Shown here: positions 10,797 to 60,071 of the stretch, piece by piece
Layout of the letters: each line of letters opens with the position of its first letter
Position numbering within the stretch: position 1 is the stretch's first letter
Source: Escherichia coli
GTDB lineage: Bacteria > Pseudomonadota > Gammaproteobacteria > Enterobacterales > Enterobacteriaceae
NCBI RefSeq assembly: GCF_024223415.1
Contig: NZ_CP100500.1
DNA: 64,000 nt
Strand: one strand, 5' to 3'
Made by a program: the position numbers and the translations under genes
The notes under the pieces: generated by a model
What the model was told of the DNA's origin: nothing
Database searches by the model: none
What the model saw: the letters and a program-made list of their open reading frames with translations, nothing else

Positions 10797-10873
10797 TGGA
10801 CCGCCACCGGGGACTCGAACCTCGCACACTCAACTTAAAGGGTTGACGCTCTTTCCTGATGAGCTAGTGGCGG
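10797..10873 (-). tRNA. tRNA, identity uncertain (anticodon loop CCUUUAA reads UUU but has non-canonical C33; Lys- or Arg-like phage tRNA, possibly decayed)
   Basis: 77-nt cloverleaf: acceptor CCGCCAC/GTGGCGG, D-stem GCTC/GAGC, anticodon stem TCAAC/GTTGA, T-loop TTCGAGT, encoded CCA; 1 nt from neighbouring tRNA. Confidence 0.55.
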
Positions 10874-10874
10874 T

Positions 10875-10950
10875 TGGTGGCCCTTGCTGGATTTGAACCA
10901 GCGACCTGGCGATTATGAGTCGCTCGCTCTCACCACTGAGCTAAAGGGCC
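10875..10950 (-). tRNA. tRNA-Ile2-like (anticodon CAU; Met/Ile-lysidine type), phage-borne
   Basis: GGCCCTTTAGCTCAGTGGTGAGAGCGAGCGACTCATAATCGCCAGGTCGCTGGTTCAAATCCAGCAAGGGCCACCA closely resembles E. coli minor tRNA-Ile (CAU); between Q and lysis genes as in Stx-phage ileZ-argN-argO clusters. Confidence 0.8.
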
Positions 10951-11160: not shown

Positions 11161-11850
11161 TCAATCTACTTTTGCAACACTTTGCTTTGAAAATGCCGCC
11201 TTTTGTTTTGAACGTGTTCTCATTACAAACAATAAAGCCTCACTATCCAGTCGGTGAAAAATGTGTTTCATTGCAACCCAGTGACGAGTAAATGTTTTGG
11301 ACCAGTTTTTAGTTGTCACTCCCGCCAGTAATGCCAGCTCCTGGTATTCATAACTTTCCCCACCAAAAAGTTCTGCTTTTACTGCCTGCGCCGCCAGCCA
11401 GATTAATTTTTTCAGGCGTTCCTGCGTTTTCCCTGCAATTTTTCTGGTACCTGATTGAGTATTAAATTCATTCCACGCCCACTGTGTTATCGCGATCTGA
11501 TATTCCCAACAAATACTCCCGCTGTAACTCCACAACAACCAGGCTTTATGATGTTCTTCAAGAGACAGAACAGCCCGCCGCCACGATGATGTCGAAAACT
11601 CAACCGGGCTGACCAGGGCAATTGATGAGCCTTTCGCCAGTGATTGTTTTCCCGGGATTGGTGGATTATCCCGCGTTATCATTTTTCCAGTCACTTCATC
11701 GCGGTACCGGATTTTTTTACGCCTGTAACGCCCTGTATCAAACATGGCATTCTCCTGCCAGGCCTCAAGCTGCCCTTTTGTTGATCCACTCAAATCGGCG
11801 GTGGCAATCATGAGTTGCTGACGAACAAACTGTAAATACTGGTTATTCAT
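11161..11850 (-). CDS. Late antiterminator Q (Phage_antitermQ-type, assigned mainly by position)
   Basis: ATG at 11850 overlaps rusA stop (ATGA); sits between rusA and tR-prime/tRNAs/lysis genes; family assignment by context and approximate recall. Confidence 0.6.
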   Translation of the reverse strand: MNNQYLQFVRQQLMIATADLSGSTKGQLEAWQENAMFDTGRYRRKKIRYRDEVTGKMITRDNPPIPGKQSLAKGSSIALVSPVEFSTSSWRRAVLSLEEHHKAWLLWSYSGSICWEYQIAITQWAWNEFNTQSGTRKIAGKTQERLKKLIWLAAQAVKAELFGGESYEYQELALLAGVTTKNWSKTFTRHWVAMKHIFHRLDSEALLFVMRTRSKQKAAFSKQSVAKVD

Positions 11851-12212
11851 GCGCACTCCAGTTCTGTGATTTTTATCCCCAACCGCCCACCAGGAACAAG
11901 CTGACCGCGCACAATATTAATTTCATCAAACTGCTCGTCGTCTATGAGCAGCCCAGCATGCGTCAGTGCATCCAGTGGTGCCTTCAGGATATTGTCCAGG
12001 TCACGACGGCGCTTATCCGGTGGCTCTGCAATAATTTTTATTGCCAGCCTTCCTGACAGGTTTAATTTCAGTCGCTGCTGGCGAACAATAAGCGCCACAT
12101 CACGGCGATAACGCTCACCGGCTTTTGATACAAAATATGTGCTGCCACGACGTCGCCAGTAGGTATTCACCGTCGGCGGGTAAGGCAAAACAAATTCTAT
12201 GCGTTCAGTCAT
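11847..12212 (-). CDS. rusA: Holliday junction resolvase RusA
   Basis: 121 aa; ERIEFVLPYPPTVNTYW...RDLDNILKAPLDAL RusA signature. Confidence 0.85.
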   Translation of the reverse strand: MTERIEFVLPYPPTVNTYWRRRGSTYFVSKAGERYRRDVALIVRQQRLKLNLSGRLAIKIIAEPPDKRRRDLDNILKAPLDALTHAGLLIDDEQFDEINIVRGQLVPGGRLGIKITELECA

Positions 12213-13734: not shown

Positions 13735-14127
13735 CTACTGCCCAGTTCTAACGAAGTTTTTGAAGGAAACAACTGCCTGATAGAGGTTTGGTTGACAGCC
13801 AAACATATTATCGCAAAAAGGCTGGATGAAAATTCTTGAGGATCCATCTTCATTTGGCATTTTACTCACTTGATAAGCGAGGAGTGGACTATTTGGTGAG
13901 GGGTTATAAGTGGAAATTAGCGTGTCTGTCGCCGTTTGAATTTTCCATGCGGAATTATTAGCCAACCAGAATTGCGCGCGTTTCCAATAAAAGTCACATT
14001 GCTTTTCATCTTTACATGTTAGTGGCTTCATTGCTTCTGCTTTCAACGCAGGATCGACCTTTGCTGCACACCCTCCCAACATTACTGTTGCAATCATTAC
14101 ACCTGCAACTAAAACAAGTTTCTTCAT
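13735..14127 (-). CDS. Hypothetical outer-membrane lipoprotein (moron), 130 aa
   Basis: MKKLVLVAGVMIATVMLGGC signal with lipobox LGGC, +2 Ala; four further Cys; visibly AT-rich segment bounded by hok terminator region. Confidence 0.6.
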   Translation of the reverse strand: MKKLVLVAGVMIATVMLGGCAAKVDPALKAEAMKPLTCKDEKQCDFYWKRAQFWLANNSAWKIQTATDTLISTYNPSPNSPLLAYQVSKMPNEDGSSRIFIQPFCDNMFGCQPNLYQAVVSFKNFVRTGQ

Positions 14128-14270
14128 CTCCCTGCCCCCATCAGTAAAAGTTCGGTTCTCTGATAACTAGAGTTAATCAACGGAAAAACGCCGAAGCGGG
14201 TTAAGTGTGGGTGCATTGAGGATGCCTGACTCATCAGAGGTGGCGAGGGATTTCTCCCTCGCCTGGTCTC

Positions 14271-14426
14271 TTACTCCTCAGGTTCGTAAGCTGTGAAGAC
14301 AGCGACCTCCGTCTGGCCGGTTCGGATTCGTACCTCGCAGAGGTCTTTCCTCGTTACCAGTGCCGTCACAATGACGGTAATACAGATGACGATCAGGGCG
14401 ACTAACATCGCCTTTTGCTGCTTCAT
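14271..14426 (-). CDS. Hok/Gef-family type I toxin (HokD/RelF-like)
   Basis: 51 aa MKQQKAMLVALIVICITVIVTALVTRKDLCEVRIRTGQTEVAVFTAYEPEE matches Hok family; in-frame upstream ATG at 14483 also present. Confidence 0.8.
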   Translation of the reverse strand: MKQQKAMLVALIVICITVIVTALVTRKDLCEVRIRTGQTEVAVFTAYEPEE

Positions 14427-14637
14427 AGCCTGCTTCTCCTTGCCTTTCGGCACGTAAGAGGCTAACCTAGATTTGCCGTTCATAGATTGAGCCTCAGATT
14501 AATGTTAAGCGTCTTGCCGGACGCGTAATGTTAACTGGGGCTTTTCTCTATCTGCCTTTTGGGGTTCATGCCTGAGACAGATAGCCTCAAGCACCCGCTG
14601 CAATTCTACTTAACTCTCCTTTTCCCGCAAACCATTT
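14427..14637 (-). promoter_or_regulatory. hok mRNA leader; expected location of antisense Sok-like RNA (plus strand) and mok-like reading frame
   Basis: By analogy with hok/sok loci; GGCGAGGGA-TTTC-TCCCTCGCC hairpin just 3-prime of hok at 14233-14254; exact sok ends not determinable. Confidence 0.3.
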
Positions 14638-14721
14638 TTATCCCCAGCGGCAAATCGAATACACCACCAGCGCCACCGCCATCGCAATTCCTACCGTTGT
14701 GAATGCTTCAGGCCAGGTCAT
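14638..14721 (-). CDS. Small hydrophobic peptide (27 aa, MTWPEAFTTVGIAMAVALVVYSICRWG), translationally coupled to upstream gene
   Basis: ATG overlaps TGA of 14718-15233 gene (ATGA); single predicted TM helix; not in ORF track (under 60 aa). Confidence 0.35.
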   Translation of the reverse strand: MTWPEAFTTVGIAMAVALVVYSICRWG

Positions 14722-15233
14722 CGTAAAATATCCTCCGCGCTTATCAGTCCATTTCGTTTCAGGTAATCCATCGCCTTCTCCGGTAATTTGCAGTCCGGCT
14801 GAGCTTTTTTCAGTTGACTGACCAGTCGTTTAACCCACATTGTTAATTCGCCAACCTGATTACTGGATGCCAGTGGATTGTCGGCTTTACCCAGAATGAC
14901 AGCACAGCAGGCCTCTTTGAGCACCCAATCAACAGCATCTTTCCATGCTCCTGTTTCGACTGGTGGATTCTCACGCTTTACCTGTTCATAAAAGCGCACG
15001 GCTTTAACCAGTCCTTCTGATGTCACCGGGACTGACGGGGCAGTGAATAAGGCCTGAATCTCATAGCTCGGCCTGTCGTTGCAATCCTCTTTTGTCGGTA
15101 CATATTTCCAGTCACCAACCCACATCTTCTCCTGAAAGTCCGTAACGCCTTTTTTCACGTAGCGATATCGCCATACAACTGGTTTTGCCTGCCCTGCCGT
15201 TTCATGCCCTTCCTGATAATTAATCTCGCTCAT
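14718..15233 (-). CDS. Hypothetical protein (171 aa)
   Basis: ATG start overlaps stop of upstream small acidic ORF (ATGA); no homolog recognised. Confidence 0.55.
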   Translation of the reverse strand: MSEINYQEGHETAGQAKPVVWRYRYVKKGVTDFQEKMWVGDWKYVPTKEDCNDRPSYEIQALFTAPSVPVTSEGLVKAVRFYEQVKRENPPVETGAWKDAVDWVLKEACCAVILGKADNPLASSNQVGELTMWVKRLVSQLKKAQPDCKLPEKAMDYLKRNGLISAEDILR

Positions 15234-17325: not shown

Positions 17326-17991
17326 TCAGACAAAACCAGCCGCTTTCCGGCGTTCATACTCCTGTTTCAGCAACTCAATTGGCGTTGGTCCCGACGGGCG
17401 TTTGGGGGCCGCCAGTTGTCGCCGGACTGGCGGAACGCTGAGGCCCATACCAACATGCTTTGACCATTTCGTCAGTTGCCGTTCTGCAAACCGTTTTAAC
17501 TCCCCTTCGGTCATCTGGCGTTCAATCCCCTTTGAACGCATCTCGAGGCATATGTGATACAGCACAGGCTGAGACCACGGGTATTTATCGCTTCCGTCGT
17601 ATCGCCAGGACTCATTGCGCCAGCGTCGGTACTCCTCCATCACAGCCCCCACCGTCAGACCGAATGGATTGGCCCCGCTTTCCGGAATCAGTGCCACAAA
17701 CTCAGCCAGGTCAGGAGGCCATGTTTCACCCGCCCGGCAGCGGTCCATGCACTGGCGGCAGACCTGCCGGATTTGCTGCTCAGTCATCGCGCCAATCTGT
17801 GCAATCCAGAGCTTCGAAGGTGCGGCCCCGTTCTTCCGGGTCCAGCGGTCCGAATAAACCTCCCCCATGAGTTCCCACAGCTTCCAGGCTGTTTCCGTCG
17901 CTGATAAATCCGTTTTCACGTTCCCACTGCTCACGTGCTGCCCGAATTTCCTGAACTGCCCGTGATGCGGTGCCACCTGGTGCTGCTGCAT
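17326..17991 (-). CDS. Replication protein P-like (helicase loader); start uncertain (ATG 17991, 17868 or 17787)
   Basis: C-terminal two-thirds resemble lambda P as recalled (YPWSQPVLYHICLEM vs YPWKSNAHYWLVTNL; ELKRFAERQL vs ELRRKAADEL); 17787 start overlaps O-like stop. Confidence 0.6.
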   Translation of the reverse strand: MQQHQVAPHHGQFRKFGQHVSSGNVKTDLSATETAWKLWELMGEVYSDRWTRKNGAAPSKLWIAQIGAMTEQQIRQVCRQCMDRCRAGETWPPDLAEFVALIPESGANPFGLTVGAVMEEYRRWRNESWRYDGSDKYPWSQPVLYHICLEMRSKGIERQMTEGELKRFAERQLTKWSKHVGMGLSVPPVRRQLAAPKRPSGPTPIELLKQEYERRKAAGFV

Positions 17992-18790
17992 GGTTCACCC
18001 CCTTGCTGACTGGTTTAACCTGCGCCCTGACGTGATTTACGTGACGGGCGAATTTCTGCTCCCACTGAACCTGTGTGAACACTTTCCCCTCCGCCATCCA
18101 GTAATCCCGGAAGGCGGCAAGTTCAGCAGGTGTAAATTCCGGTTCCGGCAAAGCCGCTCCCCACAACGCAGCCCGCCGTCGAAAATCCAGCGACGGATGC
18201 CAGCCATCGGCCATCGGAAATTTCCCGATGGGTTCACTCAGGCCATCCGGAAATTCAGGTTCCGCCACCTGCAACGGCGTACCGTTCGGTTCACTGGTCG
18301 GAGCACTCTCGCGCACGCGCGCGTTATGTGTGGGGTTTAATTCTTTATCTGTATCTTTATTAGTTGCCTTTGTGTTTGCGTCATGTTCAAACACCACACC
18401 AACATTTGTTTGAACACCTGTTAAATCTCTCTCTTGTTTTGTTTGAACATCTGCTTCCTTTCTGCTTCTTCTGGCCTGAACAGATGCTTTTCCGGCGGCT
18501 GATTTTTTGGTTAATTTTTCCCTGACTGATGCCAGATCTTCCTCAATCCGAAGATGCACCCATTCATCGCCGTTATCGTGAAAAAACTCCCGCAAGGATG
18601 GCTCCACATCAGCCCATCGCTCATTAGTCAGACGGGCAATTTTTGCCAGCCTGTTTTTAGGTATTGGCTTTCCTGTTTGCCAGTAATTGAACATCAGCAA
18701 CAAATACGCACCGTGCTCCTCTGCTGATAAATGCATGGTGTCAGCCAGGTAATCAGCGATGTACAGTTGCATGTATGGTAATGCGGCCAT
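17780..18790 (-). CDS. Replication initiator, DUF1376/YdaU-like (lambda O analogue) with internal iteron origin
   Basis: 336 aa; LMFNYWQTGKPIP N-terminal domain; iterons and AT-rich tract inside the coding region of a hydrophilic linker. Confidence 0.6.
   Translation of the reverse strand: MAALPYMQLYIADYLADTMHLSAEEHGAYLLLMFNYWQTGKPIPKNRLAKIARLTNERWADVEPSLREFFHDNGDEWVHLRIEEDLASVREKLTKKSAAGKASVQARRSRKEADVQTKQERDLTGVQTNVGVVFEHDANTKATNKDTDKELNPTHNARVRESAPTSEPNGTPLQVAEPEFPDGLSEPIGKFPMADGWHPSLDFRRRAALWGAALPEPEFTPAELAAFRDYWMAEGKVFTQVQWEQKFARHVNHVRAQVKPVSKGVNHAAAPGGTASRAVQEIRAAREQWERENGFISDGNSLEAVGTHGGGLFGPLDPEERGRTFEALDCTDWRDD
18384..18483. repeat. Origin-like iterons TGTTTGAACA (18407-18416, 18440-18449), inverted copy TGTTCAAACA (18384-18393), partial copy (18476-18483); adjacent AT-rich tract ~18335-18365
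   Basis: Exact 10-mer repeats read directly; arrangement mirrors lambda ori inside O. Confidence 0.5.
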
Positions 18791-20675: not shown

Positions 20676-21484
20676 AACCAATTTCCTCTCGGGTAACAGA
20701 CCCCTCAGAGGATACCACCTCGCCTGACGTGGTTAAAAGCAGGCACACAACACGAAAGCGCACGGCGAGGTAGCTGGTTCATATATAGCCTGTCGTTAAA
20801 TTTTCGTCGACCGTGCGCTTCCGGTTGTGGCACTCCGCGAAATGGCGCGGCGGTAAGCATGGCGGGGTTCCCTTCCCCTTGAGGACACCGGGTTGTCAGG
20901 TTGACCATGCGCCTGAGTGACAACCCCGCTGCAACGCCCTCTGTTATCAATTTTCTGGTGACGTTTGGCGGTATCAGTTTTACTCCGTGACTGCTCTGCC
21001 GCCCTTTTTAAAGTGAATTTTGTGATGTGGTGAATGCGGCTCAGCGCACGCGGAACAGTTAAAACCAAAAACAGAGTTATGGGTGGATTCTCTGTATCCG
21101 GCGTTAATTGTTAACTGGTTAACGTCACCTGGAGGCACCTGGCACCGCATCAACAAAGTTCACTTCGGTGATGAAAGGTAAGAGAAAATGTTGAATGTAG
21201 CTATTGAAAACCAGTACGGGTGGAATTATAGTGCACCTGCACCTCATAAAACGGGTGCCGGGCGTGGAAACCCGAAAGTTACTCGAGCGCATAACCGCGC
21301 CGAAGCGGTTTTTTTATGCGTAATGCACAGCCACATTCAGATAATGGTGGGGCGTGCAGGGCAGCTGCAAGGCTGGCCGGGTTCTCGAGTGACCGGTATT
21401 TCCACCCCTGTACGTCTCGCCACCCTTATGGTCGTGGAAAGCCTCGGTGGTGAGTTAATTAACTTAACACTTGAGGATGCCATC

Positions 21485-51177: not shown

Positions 51178-51262
<85 letters not shown>

Positions 51263-51318
51263 TCACTTTTCAAAAGTCCCTGAACTCTCAAGCGAATCCG
51301 CAATTAAATATTCTGCCC

Positions 51319-51420
51319 ATGCGGGGAAGGATGAGAAGCTTCGACCAAGGTTCGACTCGAGCGCCAGCGAGAGAGCGTTGCCGCAGGCAACGACCCGAAG
51401 GGCGAAGCGCGCAGCGCTGA
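51319..51420 (+). CDS. tpr: Protamine-like protein Tpr (33 aa, Arg-rich) in tyrT 3-prime repeat region
   Basis: [33 protein letters not shown]; location downstream of tyrT. Confidence 0.45.
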
Positions 51421-51422
51421 GT

Positions 51423-51441
51423 AATCCTTCCCCCACCACCA
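51423..51441 (+). repeat. Repeat of tRNA-Tyr 3-prime end (AATCCTTCCCCCACCACCA)
   Basis: Identical to last 19 nt of the tRNA at 51244-51262. Confidence 0.6.
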
Positions 51442-58287: not shown

Positions 58288-58679
58288 CGGTTTTCTCCTG
58301 TGGGAGCCTGTCGGCCCTCTGATAAATCGACATTGCTAATGTTTAAGGGCAAGGTAACGCTCTGAAACAGCGTGGGAATTGATAACGATCAAGAGTGATG
58401 GGGATGAAAAATAAAGTAAATTCCTAAGATACCCCTTTAGGATAATTAACAGTTACAGCATAACATGCTGTAAATTAAGACATTTTATACCTGTAGCTAT
58501 TTAAACTATTAAGATTTTTATGCAAATGGGTATTAAGGAGTATTCCCCATGGGTAACATATTAATGGCTCTTAATGAAATCCGGCGAAATAAGCTATATA
58601 ACATTAGTATGTTGTAACTAAATAACGTATAAAAAAAGCGCGACATCATGCCGCGCAAAGGATAATCAAATATTAAGAT

Positions 58680-60071
58680 TTATTTTTTAGAATGCCGACC
58701 ATATACCGCCCAGGTAATCACTACGCAGGCGATATAGAAAATCAAAAATACTTTCATTGCGCCGACTGGCGAACCCGTTAATGCCAGCGAGCTACCGAAC
58801 GCTTTCGGGATAAAGAAGCCACCAATCGCGCCAATCGCAGAGATGAAACCCAACGCCGCCGCCGTGTCGGTTGCCGCTTCACGCATCGCACGTTCGTCAG
58901 ACCCCCCTTCTGCTTTCACGCGATCCATTGTCAGTTTACGGAAGATCACTGAAATCATCTGGAAAGTGGAACCACTACCCAGCCCAGCTGTCAGGAACAG
59001 CGCCAGGAAGACCGCGAAGAACGCCATGAAGCTTCCGCCCTGCCCGTCAGTCGGTAAGGTCAGGAACAGCAGGCCGCTGAAAATCGCCATCAGAATAAAG
59101 TTCACCAGCGTGACACGAGTTCCGCCCAGACGGTCAGATAATGCACCACCTGCAGAACGCGCCAGCGCACCAATAAACGGCCCGAAGAAAGCGTATTGCA
59201 GAATCTGAACATCCGGGAACTGCGTTTTTGACAGCATCGCAAAGCCCGCGGAGAAGCCGATAAAGGAGCCGAAGGTTGCCAGATACAGCAGGCTCATAAT
59301 CCACAGATGACCCCGTTTGAGTACCGGCAACTGCTCCTTGATGGAGGCTTTCGAGGTAGCAAGATCGTTCATGCCAAACCACGCCGCAATGGTGAAGATG
59401 GCAAGGAACGGCACCCATATCCAGGACGCATTCGCCAGATACAGCTCAGTCCCATCCGGCTGTTTGACGCCCTGGCTACCAAATACTGCGAAAATCGACA
59501 GTGATACCACCAGCGGAGCAACCAACTGCATGACGCTGACGCCCATGTTGCCCAGACCACCATTCAGACCCAGCGCGCCACCCTGCTTCTGTTTCGGAAA
59601 GAAGAAGCTGATGTTTGCCATACTGGAAGCGAAGTTCGCGCCAGCAAAGCCGCACAGCAGAGAGATGATGATGAAGACGCTATAAGGCGTGGAGGTATCC
59701 TGCACGGCAAAACCCAGCCAGACACAAGGAATAATCAGAATACCGGTGCTGAACGCAGTCCAGCGACGACCACCGAAGATAGGAACCATAAAGGAGTATG
59801 GAACACGTAATAACGCGCCAGAAACCGAAGGCAGCGCAGTCAACATAAATAGCTGATCGGTCGTAAAATTAAAACCGACTTTCGGTAAGTTCACCGCAAC
59901 AGCGCTGAACAACATCCATACGCAAAACGCCAGCAGCAGACAGGGAACGGAAATCCACAGGTTGCGGCTGGCAATACGTTGACCGCGTTGTTGCCAGAAC
60001 GCAGGATCTTCCGGTCGCCAATCTGTAATGACAGCTCCAGTAGCCCTTTCGGGGGCGGATGAGTGACTCAT
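58680..60071 (-). CDS. narK: Nitrate/nitrite transporter NarK
   Basis: 463 aa from ATG 60071 (MSHSSAPERATGAV); MFS transporter. Confidence 0.95.
   Translation of the reverse strand: MSHSSAPERATGAVITDWRPEDPAFWQQRGQRIASRNLWISVPCLLLAFCVWMLFSAVAVNLPKVGFNFTTDQLFMLTALPSVSGALLRVPYSFMVPIFGGRRWTAFSTGILIIPCVWLGFAVQDTSTPYSVFIIISLLCGFAGANFASSMANISFFFPKQKQGGALGLNGGLGNMGVSVMQLVAPLVVSLSIFAVFGSQGVKQPDGTELYLANASWIWVPFLAIFTIAAWFGMNDLATSKASIKEQLPVLKRGHLWIMSLLYLATFGSFIGFSAGFAMLSKTQFPDVQILQYAFFGPFIGALARSAGGALSDRLGGTRVTLVNFILMAIFSGLLFLTLPTDGQGGSFMAFFAVFLALFLTAGLGSGSTFQMISVIFRKLTMDRVKAEGGSDERAMREAATDTAAALGFISAIGAIGGFFIPKAFGSSLALTGSPVGAMKVFLIFYIACVVITWAVYGRHSKK

What the first reader, a model, noticed from the sequence alone, without database searches (positions are those of the whole stretch)
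14128..14637. Hok-family type I toxin locus in the nin region
The 51-aa product is unmistakably Hok/Gef-like, but the ORF continues in frame upstream to ATG 14483, unlike the usual out-of-frame mok. A 9-bp-stem hairpin sits immediately 3-prime of hok (14233-14254). The antisense Sok-like RNA should be on the plus strand of the leader, but I cannot place its promoter or ends by eye.
Basis: partly seen in the sequence, partly recalled or inferred. Interest (0 to 1): 0.3.

Follow-up and report, generated by a model that had tools for sequence, protein, structure and literature searches.

The report
Intact prophage hok/mok/sok toxin–antitoxin module

Summary
The locus is real and complete. On the minus strand lie a 51-aa Hok toxin (14426-14271), its in-frame 70-codon leader ORF mok (from ATG 14483), and about 400 nt of hok mRNA starting near G14596. 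Pfam HOK_GEF scores 1.5e-23 and Rfam RF01794 scores 112 bits. The DNA is 91.6% identical to the annotated, experimentally validated mokW/hokW/sokW of phage 933W/Sp5. NCBI names the exact protein HokD, and it occurs on at least 999 contigs. I placed the antisense Sok RNA on the plus strand: -35 TTGCCT 14440-14445, -10 TAACCT 14463-14468, start G14475, end about 14545-14549. It folds as a 14-nt single-stranded 5' tail plus a terminator hairpin. All published hok mRNA elements are present: tac, fbi, ucb, mok SD, dcb and the protective 3' hairpin. The energetics match an R1 control. K-12 hokD is a truncated copy of this module. Minor extras: the Sok 5' tail is a diversity hot spot with at least 11 discrete alleles, and the window's terminator is a weakened minority allele. 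Already known; low interest.

The parts
14603..14630 (-). hok/mok promoter: -35-like TTGCGG 14630-14625 (16-nt spacer; or TTTGCG with 17), -10 TAGAAT 14608-14603
   Evidence: Read from sequence. Across at least 6 unrelated upstream contexts, conservation begins at AGTTAAG-TAGAAT, and most contexts still supply a TTGnnn 16-18 bp upstream. Too weak for the simple consensus scan. Inferred, not mapped.
14184..14596 (-). full-length hok (mok-hok) mRNA, 5' end about G14596, 3' end between about 14202 and 14184
   Evidence: The Rfam RF01794 model starts at 14596. The geometry matches R1 (398 nt). MFE -161.9 kcal/mol, z=-6.1 against shuffles. 98.4% of pair cells are kept in 54 relatives.
14585..14596 (-). 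tac (translational activator element), GGGUGCUUGAGG
   Evidence: Pairs with fbi in the full-length MFE. Invariant in relatives, pi 0.001. Pairs with ucb in the Rfam consensus structure.
14536..14542 (-). ucb / anti-SD box (AGCCCCA)
   Evidence: Pairs with the mok SD (14496-14490) in the full-length MFE. Alternative partner of tac in the Rfam model. pi 0.004.
14492..14495 (-). mok Shine-Dalgarno GAGG, 8 nt before ATG 14483
   Evidence: Sequence. Sequestered by ucb in the closed form; pairs with dcb CCUC 14461-14458 in the forced-open form.
14271..14483 (-). mok leader ORF, 70 codons, in frame with hok (MNGKSRLASYVPKGKEKQA + Hok)
   Evidence: Same 19-codon extension as mokW and R1 mok. The exact 70-aa protein is on 548 contigs.
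14458..14462 (-). dcb (downstream complementary box, GCCUC), closing the Sok-target hairpin with the mok SD
   Evidence: Rfam consensus helix. Partner of GAGG in the constrained open fold.
14436..14441 (-). hok Shine-Dalgarno AAGGAG
   Evidence: Sequence. Invariant block in all hok loci aligned.
14271..14426 (-). hok toxin gene, 51 aa (MKQQKAMLVALIVICITVIVTALVTRKDLCEVRIRTGQTEVAVFTAYEPEE)
   Evidence: Pfam HOK_GEF 1.5e-23. PHROG 251 'MokW-like host killing' 2e-32. The exact sequence is named HokD on at least 999 contigs.
14242..14263 (-). 3' stem-loop (9 bp, GAAA loop): predicted 3'-terminal protective hairpin of the processed, translatable mRNA
   Evidence: 4 of its 9 pairs show changes on both sides among relatives. 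The equivalent R1 hairpin is required for stability of Tr-hok mRNA (PMC9841398).
14209..14221 (-). fbi (fold-back inhibitory element) CCUCAAUGCACCC
   Evidence: 12 bp plus one bulge with tac in the MFE. R1 has the compensating pair set GGCGC / GCGCC.
14184..14198 (-). weakened intrinsic terminator CGC-UUCG-GCG-UUUUU
   Evidence: -3.1 kcal/mol against -13.8 for the family consensus CCCGC-UUCG-GCGGG-UUUU. Minority allele, about 8 of 56 unique relatives.
14440..14468 (+). sok promoter: -35 TTGCCT 14440-14445, 17-nt spacer, -10 TAACCT 14463-14468
   Evidence: Alignment with sokW, sokC, sokB and R1 sok. The same -10 hexamer was mutated to abolish sokW function (primers YO-421/422, PMC8621323). Not found by the consensus scan.
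14475..14549 (+). Sok antisense RNA, about 71-75 nt: 5' single-stranded tail 14475-14488, hairpin 14489-14543, U-tract 14542-14549
   Evidence: Coordinates transferred from annotated sokW (58664-58734 of AF125520) through alignment A1. Same register as K-12 sokC. Fold -29.9 kcal/mol, z=-4.9.

Best explanation
This is a complete hok/mok/sok type I toxin-antitoxin module of the hokD/hokW lineage, carried as a moron in the nin-equivalent region of a lambdoid (Qin-like) prophage in an E. coli chromosome.

Inferred mechanism, by homology with R1 hok/sok and Sp5 hokW-sokW:
1. A weak constitutive promoter (-10 TAGAAT) makes a stable mRNA of about 400 nt.
2. The 5' tac element pairs with the 3' fbi element, and ucb covers the mok Shine-Dalgarno, so the full-length RNA is neither translated nor bound by Sok.
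3. Slow 3' trimming back to the 9-bp hairpin removes fbi. Then tac can pair with ucb, and the mok SD moves into the SD/dcb target hairpin.
4. Ribosomes translating mok run over the hok SD and start codon and so allow Hok synthesis. Hok is a 51-aa inner-membrane toxin.
5. The unstable plus-strand Sok RNA of about 71 nt nucleates with its 14-nt single-stranded 5' tail on the mok start region. The duplex is cut by RNase III.
6. Toxin is therefore made only when Sok is no longer replenished, that is on prophage loss or, as shown for hokW, on SOS/prophage induction.

Shown here: sequence, ORFs, family membership, all RNA elements, their pairing potential and their conservation. Inferred: transcription, processing, toxicity and biological role.
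For: - Family matches: Pfam HOK_GEF 1.5e-23; Rfam RF01794 full length, 112 bits; PHROG 251 MokW-like.
- Homology: 91.6% DNA identity to annotated mokW/hokW/sokW of 933W and 97-98% to loci that PGAP names hokD in many E. coli. The exact proteins are catalogued.
- Closed state: the full-length MFE shows tac/fbi (12 bp) and ucb/mok-SD pairing, z=-6.1.
- Switch energetics: forcing tac/ucb costs 12.9 kcal/mol in full-length RNA but 1.7 after 3' truncation. The R1 control gives 11.6 and 3.2.
- Conservation: pairing is kept in 98.4% of cells, with 16 double-changed pairs against 1.5 in shuffles.
- Sok: promoter hexamers and start are in register with sokW, sokC and R1 sok, and the fold has a Sok-like shape, z=-4.9.
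- Experiment on the sister locus: toxicity, antitoxin activity dependent on the same -10, RNase III/Hfq dependence, and Sok loss with HokW production on induction (PMC8621323).
- Context: between the P-like replication gene and DUF968-RusA-Q.
Against: - Nothing about expression or toxicity was measured for this copy.
- The simple sigma-70 and terminator scan found no site in the region; both promoters are sub-consensus.
- The MFE of the truncated RNA does not adopt the open tac/ucb form by itself, although the R1 control does not either.
- The terminator stem is weakened by a 2-nt deletion relative to most relatives (-3.1 against -13.8 kcal/mol). The 3' end of the mRNA may therefore differ, with possible read-through into the downstream lipoprotein gene.
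- Chromosomal hok loci tested in the literature often fail to mediate post-segregational killing (stated in bioRxiv 10.1101/2025.08.07.668861).
Confidence: 0.93

Rival explanations
1. The module is structurally intact but functionally silent. On this reading it is a decaying passenger like the K-12 chromosomal hok loci, contributing nothing to prophage or host.
For: The literature reports that chromosomal hokA/B/C loci do not mediate post-segregational killing. The window's terminator is a weakened allele. Both promoters are sub-consensus.
Against: Every regulatory element is intact, and tac, ucb, the sok promoter and the hok SD are almost invariant across more than 100 prophage copies (pi 0.001-0.017), which argues for purifying selection. 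The exact protein is on at least 999 contigs. The 91.6%-identical hokW-sokW is active. K-12 shows what real decay looks like: the leader is deleted.
Confidence: 0.12
2. Same module, but its main role is lysis or induction timing for the prophage, as proposed for hokW-sokW in Sp5, rather than addiction or post-segregational killing.
For: For hokW-sokW, Sok disappears and HokW appears after mitomycin C in a RecA-dependent way, lysis starts about 40 min earlier, and phage yield is about two-fold higher with the locus (PMC8621323). The position in the early (nin) region is the same.
Against: That rests on one phage and modest effects. This copy has a different Sok tail allele, a different Hok C-terminus and a different downstream gene. 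It is not tested here.
Confidence: 0.4
3. Same module, acting chiefly as an abortive-infection or phage-exclusion device that protects the lysogen against other phages. Host transcription shut-off would deplete Sok.
For: [quoted passage not shown] PHROGs files it as a moron.
Against: The same preprint found no enrichment next to defence systems. No evidence exists for this lineage, and it is not tested here.
Confidence: 0.2

Closest known systems
hokW-mokW-sokW of Stx2 phage 933W / Sakai prophage Sp5 (AF125520; Takada et al. 2021, PMC8621323)
   Same: 91.6% DNA identity over the whole transcript. Shared features: 51-aa Hok, in-frame 70-codon Mok, identical tac, ucb and Sok body, identical sok -35/-10, a 71-nt Sok in the same register, the same upstream 27-aa ORF, and a lambdoid early-region position.
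   Different: 6 of 14 nt of the Sok 5' tail differ (Mok MNGKSR against MLNTCR). The Hok C-terminus differs (FTAYEPEE against FVDYESEK). One compensatory change in the 3' hairpin. Homology ends right after fbi, and the downstream gene differs.
hokD (relF) of the E. coli K-12 Qin cryptic prophage
   Same: 49 of 51 residues identical. Same 3' UTR, hairpin, fbi and terminator region, in the same kind of prophage (DicF nearby in both). PGAP names the window's protein HokD.
   Different: K-12 keeps homology only from about 17 nt upstream of the hok ATG. The mok start, sok gene, ucb, tac and promoter are replaced by relBE. The window carries the intact ancestral arrangement.
hok/mok/sok (parB) of plasmid R1, the archetype
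   Same: Same architecture element by element: in-frame 70-codon mok, tac/fbi, ucb/SD, SD/dcb, 3' hairpin, and a Sok of about 64-71 nt with a single-stranded 5' tail. The in-silico closed/open energetics are the same.
   Different: Takada et al. give 44% identity between R1 Hok and HokW; I did not align R1 Hok with the window's Hok. R1 is plasmid-borne with a proven post-segregational killing role. The window has a longer Sok hairpin (an insertion of about 18 nt relative to the Rfam consensus).
hokC(gef)/mokC/sokC of the E. coli chromosome
   Same: Identical tac sequence GGGTGCTTGAGG, in-frame 69-codon mokC, and sokC annotated in the same register.
   Different: A different locus (next to nhaA, not in a prophage), flanked by IS186 in K-12, with a shorter Sok hairpin. 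Its Mok N-terminus is MLNTCR, the 933W-type tail allele rather than the window's.

Membership tests
[quoted passage not shown] | Small (about 50 aa) single-helix Hok/Gef toxin | tested here: met
   Pfam PF01848 1.5e-23, covering 42 of 42 profile positions. The exact protein is named HokD.
[quoted passage not shown] | Overlapping leader ORF mok with its own SD, starting upstream of hok and reading across the hok SD and start | tested here: met
   70-codon ORF from ATG 14483 with GAGG 8 nt upstream. Same length and frame as R1 mok, mokW and mokC.
[quoted passage not shown] | cis-encoded antisense Sok RNA gene opposite the mok translation-initiation region, with its own promoter, a single-stranded 5' tail and a terminator hairpin | tested here: met
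   -35 TTGCCT, 17-nt spacer, -10 TAACCT, start G14475, all in register with sokW, sokC and R1 sok. Fold: 14-nt tail, hairpin and U-tract, z=-4.9. Sequence level only.
[quoted passage not shown] | Long-range 5'-3' tac/fbi pairing that closes the full-length mRNA | tested here: met
   12 bp plus a bulge in the MFE. At least 96% of cells are paired at each of the 12 pairs across 54 sequences (98.7% for the helix). R1 differs by compensating changes.
[quoted passage not shown] | ucb (anti-SD) sequestering the mok SD in the closed form | tested here: met
   14542-14536 pairs with 14496-14490 in the MFE. P(unpaired) of the three G residues of the SD is 0.0.
[quoted passage not shown] | Alternative tac/ucb stem and SD/dcb target hairpin after 3' processing | tested here: inconclusive
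   The Rfam model, which encodes exactly these helices, matches end to end. The energy penalty for the open form falls from 12.9 to 1.7 kcal/mol on truncation, as in R1 (11.6 to 3.2). However, the MFE itself does not switch in either RNA. Structure probing is needed.
[quoted passage not shown] | Stable stem-loop 3' of hok that becomes the 3' end of the processed mRNA | tested here: met
   9-bp GAAA hairpin at 14263-14242. 4 pairs have changes on both sides.
[quoted passage not shown] | Hok toxicity, neutralisation by Sok, RNase III cleavage of the duplex, differential RNA stability | not testable with these tools
   Shown only for the 91.6%-identical hokW-sokW (PMC8621323) and for R1 (PMC9841398).
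HokD orthologue group (NCBI naming) | Protein identity to HokD and location in a Qin-like lambdoid prophage | tested here: met
   49 of 51 residues identical to K-12 HokD, with the 3' UTR collinear. The exact sequence is named HokD. DicF lies 6.5 kb away, as in Qin.

The most novel reading that the evidence does not exclude
The 14-nt single-stranded 5' tail of Sok, which is also mok codons 2-5 and the apex of the target hairpin, may be a specificity cassette. Among otherwise near-identical prophage hok/sok modules it exists as at least 11 discrete alleles. Its nucleotide diversity is 0.28-0.35, against 0.03 in the Sok body and 0.09 in hok. The alleles could define mutually non-cross-reacting (orthogonal) toxin-antitoxin classes. 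That would let several lambdoid prophages in one cell each keep an independent addiction or induction switch, maintained by diversifying selection or cassette exchange between hok paralogues (933W shares its allele with chromosomal mokC).
Probability: 0.3. Interest if true: 0.35.

Novelty: already known. Interest (0 to 1): 0.1.

Why it matters
It matters little beyond correct annotation. The Hok toxin is already named HokD in public databases, and its sister locus hokW-sokW has been dissected experimentally. The useful outputs are practical:

- Genome annotations call only the 51-aa hok CDS. They omit mok, Sok and the RNA elements, which are placed here to the nucleotide.
- The window shows the intact form of the module that K-12 retains only as the truncated hokD/relF.
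- The discrete Sok-tail alleles and the weakened terminator allele are small leads for anyone studying cross-talk between the many hok/sok copies in polylysogenic E. coli.

Tried and rejected
1. The consensus sigma-70/terminator scan of 14050-14750 found nothing. I rejected it as evidence of absence, because both promoters and the terminator fall below its thresholds, yet they align with experimentally supported elements.
2. I expected the MFE of the 3'-truncated mRNA to flip to the open tac/ucb form. It did not: tac folds onto 14568-14577, like the published metastable hairpin, and ucb stays on the SD. The R1 positive control fails in the same way, so I used constrained energies instead.
3. 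The strand of the Rfam 'sok' hit: it is on the minus strand, and its consensus ends at the hok AUG. It therefore models the hok leader, not the Sok strand, and cannot be used to orient Sok.
4. I tested whether co-resident prophages avoid sharing a Sok-tail allele. The result was 11 different and 4 same pairs in 10 genomes, close to the roughly 18% 'same' expected by chance, with 3 of the 4 from one genome. There is no signal and little power.
5. The first set of related loci was biased to the window's allele, because MNGKSRLA was a search pattern. I replaced it with a degenerate DNA pattern for the allele census.
6. I considered that the locus might be decayed like the K-12 hok genes. I rejected that at the sequence level, because no IS, frameshift or leader deletion is present.

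Full report
**Observation.** On the minus strand the window carries a 51-aa ORF (14426-14271). The same frame stays open upstream to ATG 14483, giving 70 codons. The product matches Pfam HOK_GEF over the whole profile (E=1.5e-23, 82.6 bits, cut-off 22) and PHROG 251 'MokW-like host killing' (2e-32). The leader matches Rfam RF01794 ('sok') end to end (112.4 bits, gathering score 59, E=9.3e-25). That hit is on the minus strand and its consensus ends at the hok AUG. It therefore models the hok mRNA leader, and its helices are the tac/ucb stem and the SD/dcb hairpin. It does not model the antisense strand.

**Identity.**
- The 601 bp around the locus are 91.6% identical to phage 933W, where mokW, hokW and a 71-nt sokW are annotated.
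- The same 601 bp are 97-98% identical to loci in many E. coli chromosomes whose CDS PGAP names hokD.
- The exact 51-aa sequence is catalogued as 'type I toxin-antitoxin system toxin HokD' on at least 999 contigs. The exact 70-aa sequence is catalogued on 548 contigs.
- The window itself is E. coli. Its right-hand 24 kb (nar/adhE region) is 100% identical to several chromosomes, and the left part is a lambdoid prophage.
- On the minus strand the gene order runs from regulators and YdaT, through O-like (17780-18790), P-like (17326-17991), DUF1627, DUF977 and phrog_660, to the hok module. It continues with a lipoprotein (13735-14127), DUF968, RusA, Q (11161-11856) and tRNAs.
- DicF, isrK and C4 lie 6.5-7 kb away, as in Qin-like prophages.
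- In K-12 Qin, homology to the window begins only about 17 nt upstream of the hokD ATG, and everything 5' of that is replaced by relBE. The window therefore holds the intact form of the module that K-12 keeps as a stump.

**The 'unusual' in-frame mok.** This claim is wrong.
- In 933W, mokW (58460-58672) and hokW (58460-58615) share a stop.
- In K-12, mokC and hokC share a stop.
- In an R1-type plasmid locus with a Hok 100% identical to R1, the ATG at L005:444 opens a 70-codon frame, MSDNIRIASYRALRKEKKAM-KLPRSS..., that runs straight into Hok. [quoted passage not shown] (PMC9841398).
- Only K-12 mokB is out of frame: its start is 58 nt from the hokB start and it has a different stop.
- The window's 19-codon extension (MNGKSRLASYVPKGKEKQA) is the standard one.

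**Placing Sok.** Transferring the sokW coordinates through alignment A1 gives plus strand 14475-14545. That is the same register as K-12 sokC, with a 9-nt overlap of the mok start. In a six-locus alignment of the antisense strand, the block TTCTCCTTG-C (-35: TTGCCT, 14440-14445) and GTAAGAGGCT-A are invariant. The -10 is TAACCT (14463-14468) with a 17-nt spacer, and the start is G14475. Takada et al. abolished sokW function by changing exactly this hexamer: primers YO-421/422 change TAGGTTAG to CCGGCTCG on the mRNA strand (PMC8621323). The 71-nt RNA folds as a 14-nt single-stranded 5' tail, a long hairpin (14489-14543) and a U-tract (-29.9 kcal/mol, z=-4.9). A simple consensus scan found no promoter or terminator, because these elements are sub-consensus.

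**hok mRNA elements.**
- The hok -10 is TAGAAT (14608-14603). Among relatives with at least six unrelated upstream contexts, conservation starts precisely at AGTTAAG-TAGAAT. This puts the start at about G14596.
- In the full-length MFE (z=-6.1), tac (14596-14585) pairs with fbi (14221-14209) over 12 bp plus a bulge. Also, ucb (14542-14536) covers the mok SD (14496-14490).
- Forcing the alternative tac/ucb stem costs 12.9 kcal/mol in the full-length RNA but only 1.7 after removing the 3' end. The mok SD then pairs with dcb (CCUC, 14461-14458).
- An R1 control gives 11.6 and 3.2 kcal/mol. Like the window, its truncated MFE keeps the metastable 5' hairpin.
- These are the states described for R1 (PMC9841398).
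- Across 54 distinct sequences, 98.4% of pair cells are standard pairs. Sixteen pairs show changes on both sides, against 1.5 in shuffles and 1-5 in slid controls, and four of those 16 are in the 3' hairpin. Caveats: the relatives are close, and the structure was derived from the window.

**Mechanism (inferred by homology).** A stable, closed mRNA is slowly trimmed at the 3' end to the protective hairpin. It then opens, and mok translation permits hok translation. The short-lived Sok nucleates on the mok start region through its 5' tail and triggers RNase III cleavage. Hok is therefore made only when Sok is not replenished. For the sister locus this happens on RecA-dependent prophage induction. 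There it advances lysis by about 40 min and doubles phage release. Whether this copy serves addiction, lysis timing or phage exclusion cannot be decided here.

**Differences from relatives.**
1. *Sok-tail alleles.* Against 933W the Sok body is identical, but 6 of 14 tail nucleotides differ. An unbiased degenerate-pattern scan of viral contigs (120 loci, capped) shows at least 11 discrete alleles of this 22-nt segment: MNGKS 26, MSHKC 25, MLYTR 21, MLDTC 20, MLNTC 14, and others. Nucleotide diversity there is 0.28-0.35, against 0.03 in the Sok body, 0.087 in hok, 0.001 in tac and 0.004 in ucb. Prophages from one genome usually carry different alleles (11 pairs against 4), but that is what chance predicts.
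2. *Terminator.* The terminator after fbi is a minority allele lacking two G residues: -3.1 kcal/mol against -13.8 for the consensus.

**Verdict.** This is a known system in a known place.

Noticed in passing
window 14469-14491 (both strands); loci L087-L206: The Sok 5' tail / mok codons 2-5 segment is the diversity hot spot of the module. There are at least 11 discrete alleles in 120 viral contigs, with pi 0.28-0.35 against 0.03 for the rest of Sok. The 933W allele (MLNTC) equals that of chromosomal mokC. These are possible specificity classes. A same-genome co-occurrence test showed no departure from chance.
   Followed up: partly
window 14184-14198 (-): The intrinsic terminator after fbi carries a 2-nt deletion in its 3' arm (GGCG-UUUUU instead of GCGGG-UUUU). 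The stem falls from 7 to 3 bp (-3.1 against -13.8 kcal/mol). The same allele occurs in E. coli O177:H21 and in about 8 of 56 unique relatives. Read-through into the downstream lipoprotein gene is possible.
   Followed up: partly
window 14638-14721 (-): An unannotated 27-aa hydrophobic ORF (MTWPEAFTTVGIAMAVALVVYSICRWG). Its ATG overlaps the stop of the upstream phrog_660 gene (ATGA), and it ends about 30 nt before the hok -10. It is kept open in 52 of 190 related loci with mostly conservative substitutions, including 933W. It may be a small membrane protein, and it has no Pfam or PHROG match.
   Followed up: partly
window 14285-14288 (-), hok codon Tyr47: The Tyr47 codon UAC sits in a UACGAA context, the TadA-type A-to-I editing motif. 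A preprint (10.1101/2025.08.07.668861) says this motif recodes Tyr to Cys in hokB, with a similar phenomenon in hokC/D/E. The local fold did not show an obvious anticodon-like stem-loop.
   Followed up: partly
window 13735-14127 (-): A 130-aa predicted lipoprotein (signal MKKLVLVAGVMIATVMLGGC) lies immediately downstream of hok. It matches phrog_16082 (unknown function) and has no Pfam match. It is absent from the 933W arrangement, where a YgiW/YdeI-like gene follows hokW.
   Followed up: no
window 20953-21004, 21239-21315, 21340-21427 (+): Rfam finds DicF (76.7 bits), isrK (67.2 bits) and C4 antisense RNA (73.8 bits) clustered in the prophage immunity-proximal region. These are hallmarks of Qin-like and P4/Gifsy-like regulatory sRNA clusters.
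   Followed up: no
window 10800-10950 (-); 51178-51441 (+): Two phage-borne tRNA genes lie downstream of Q. In the host flank there is a tRNA followed by an RtT repeat element (137.5 bits), typical of the tyrT region.
   Followed up: no
window 14421-14596 (-), Rfam RF01794: The Rfam family named 'sok antitoxin' matches the hok-sense strand and its consensus ends at the hok AUG. Hits to it therefore report the hok leader, not the orientation of Sok. This is a trap for automated annotation.
   Followed up: yes
L006 (K-12 1491922-1492129): K-12 mokB is annotated out of frame with hokB (starts 58 nt apart, different stops), unlike mokC, mokW and R1 mok.
   Followed up: yes
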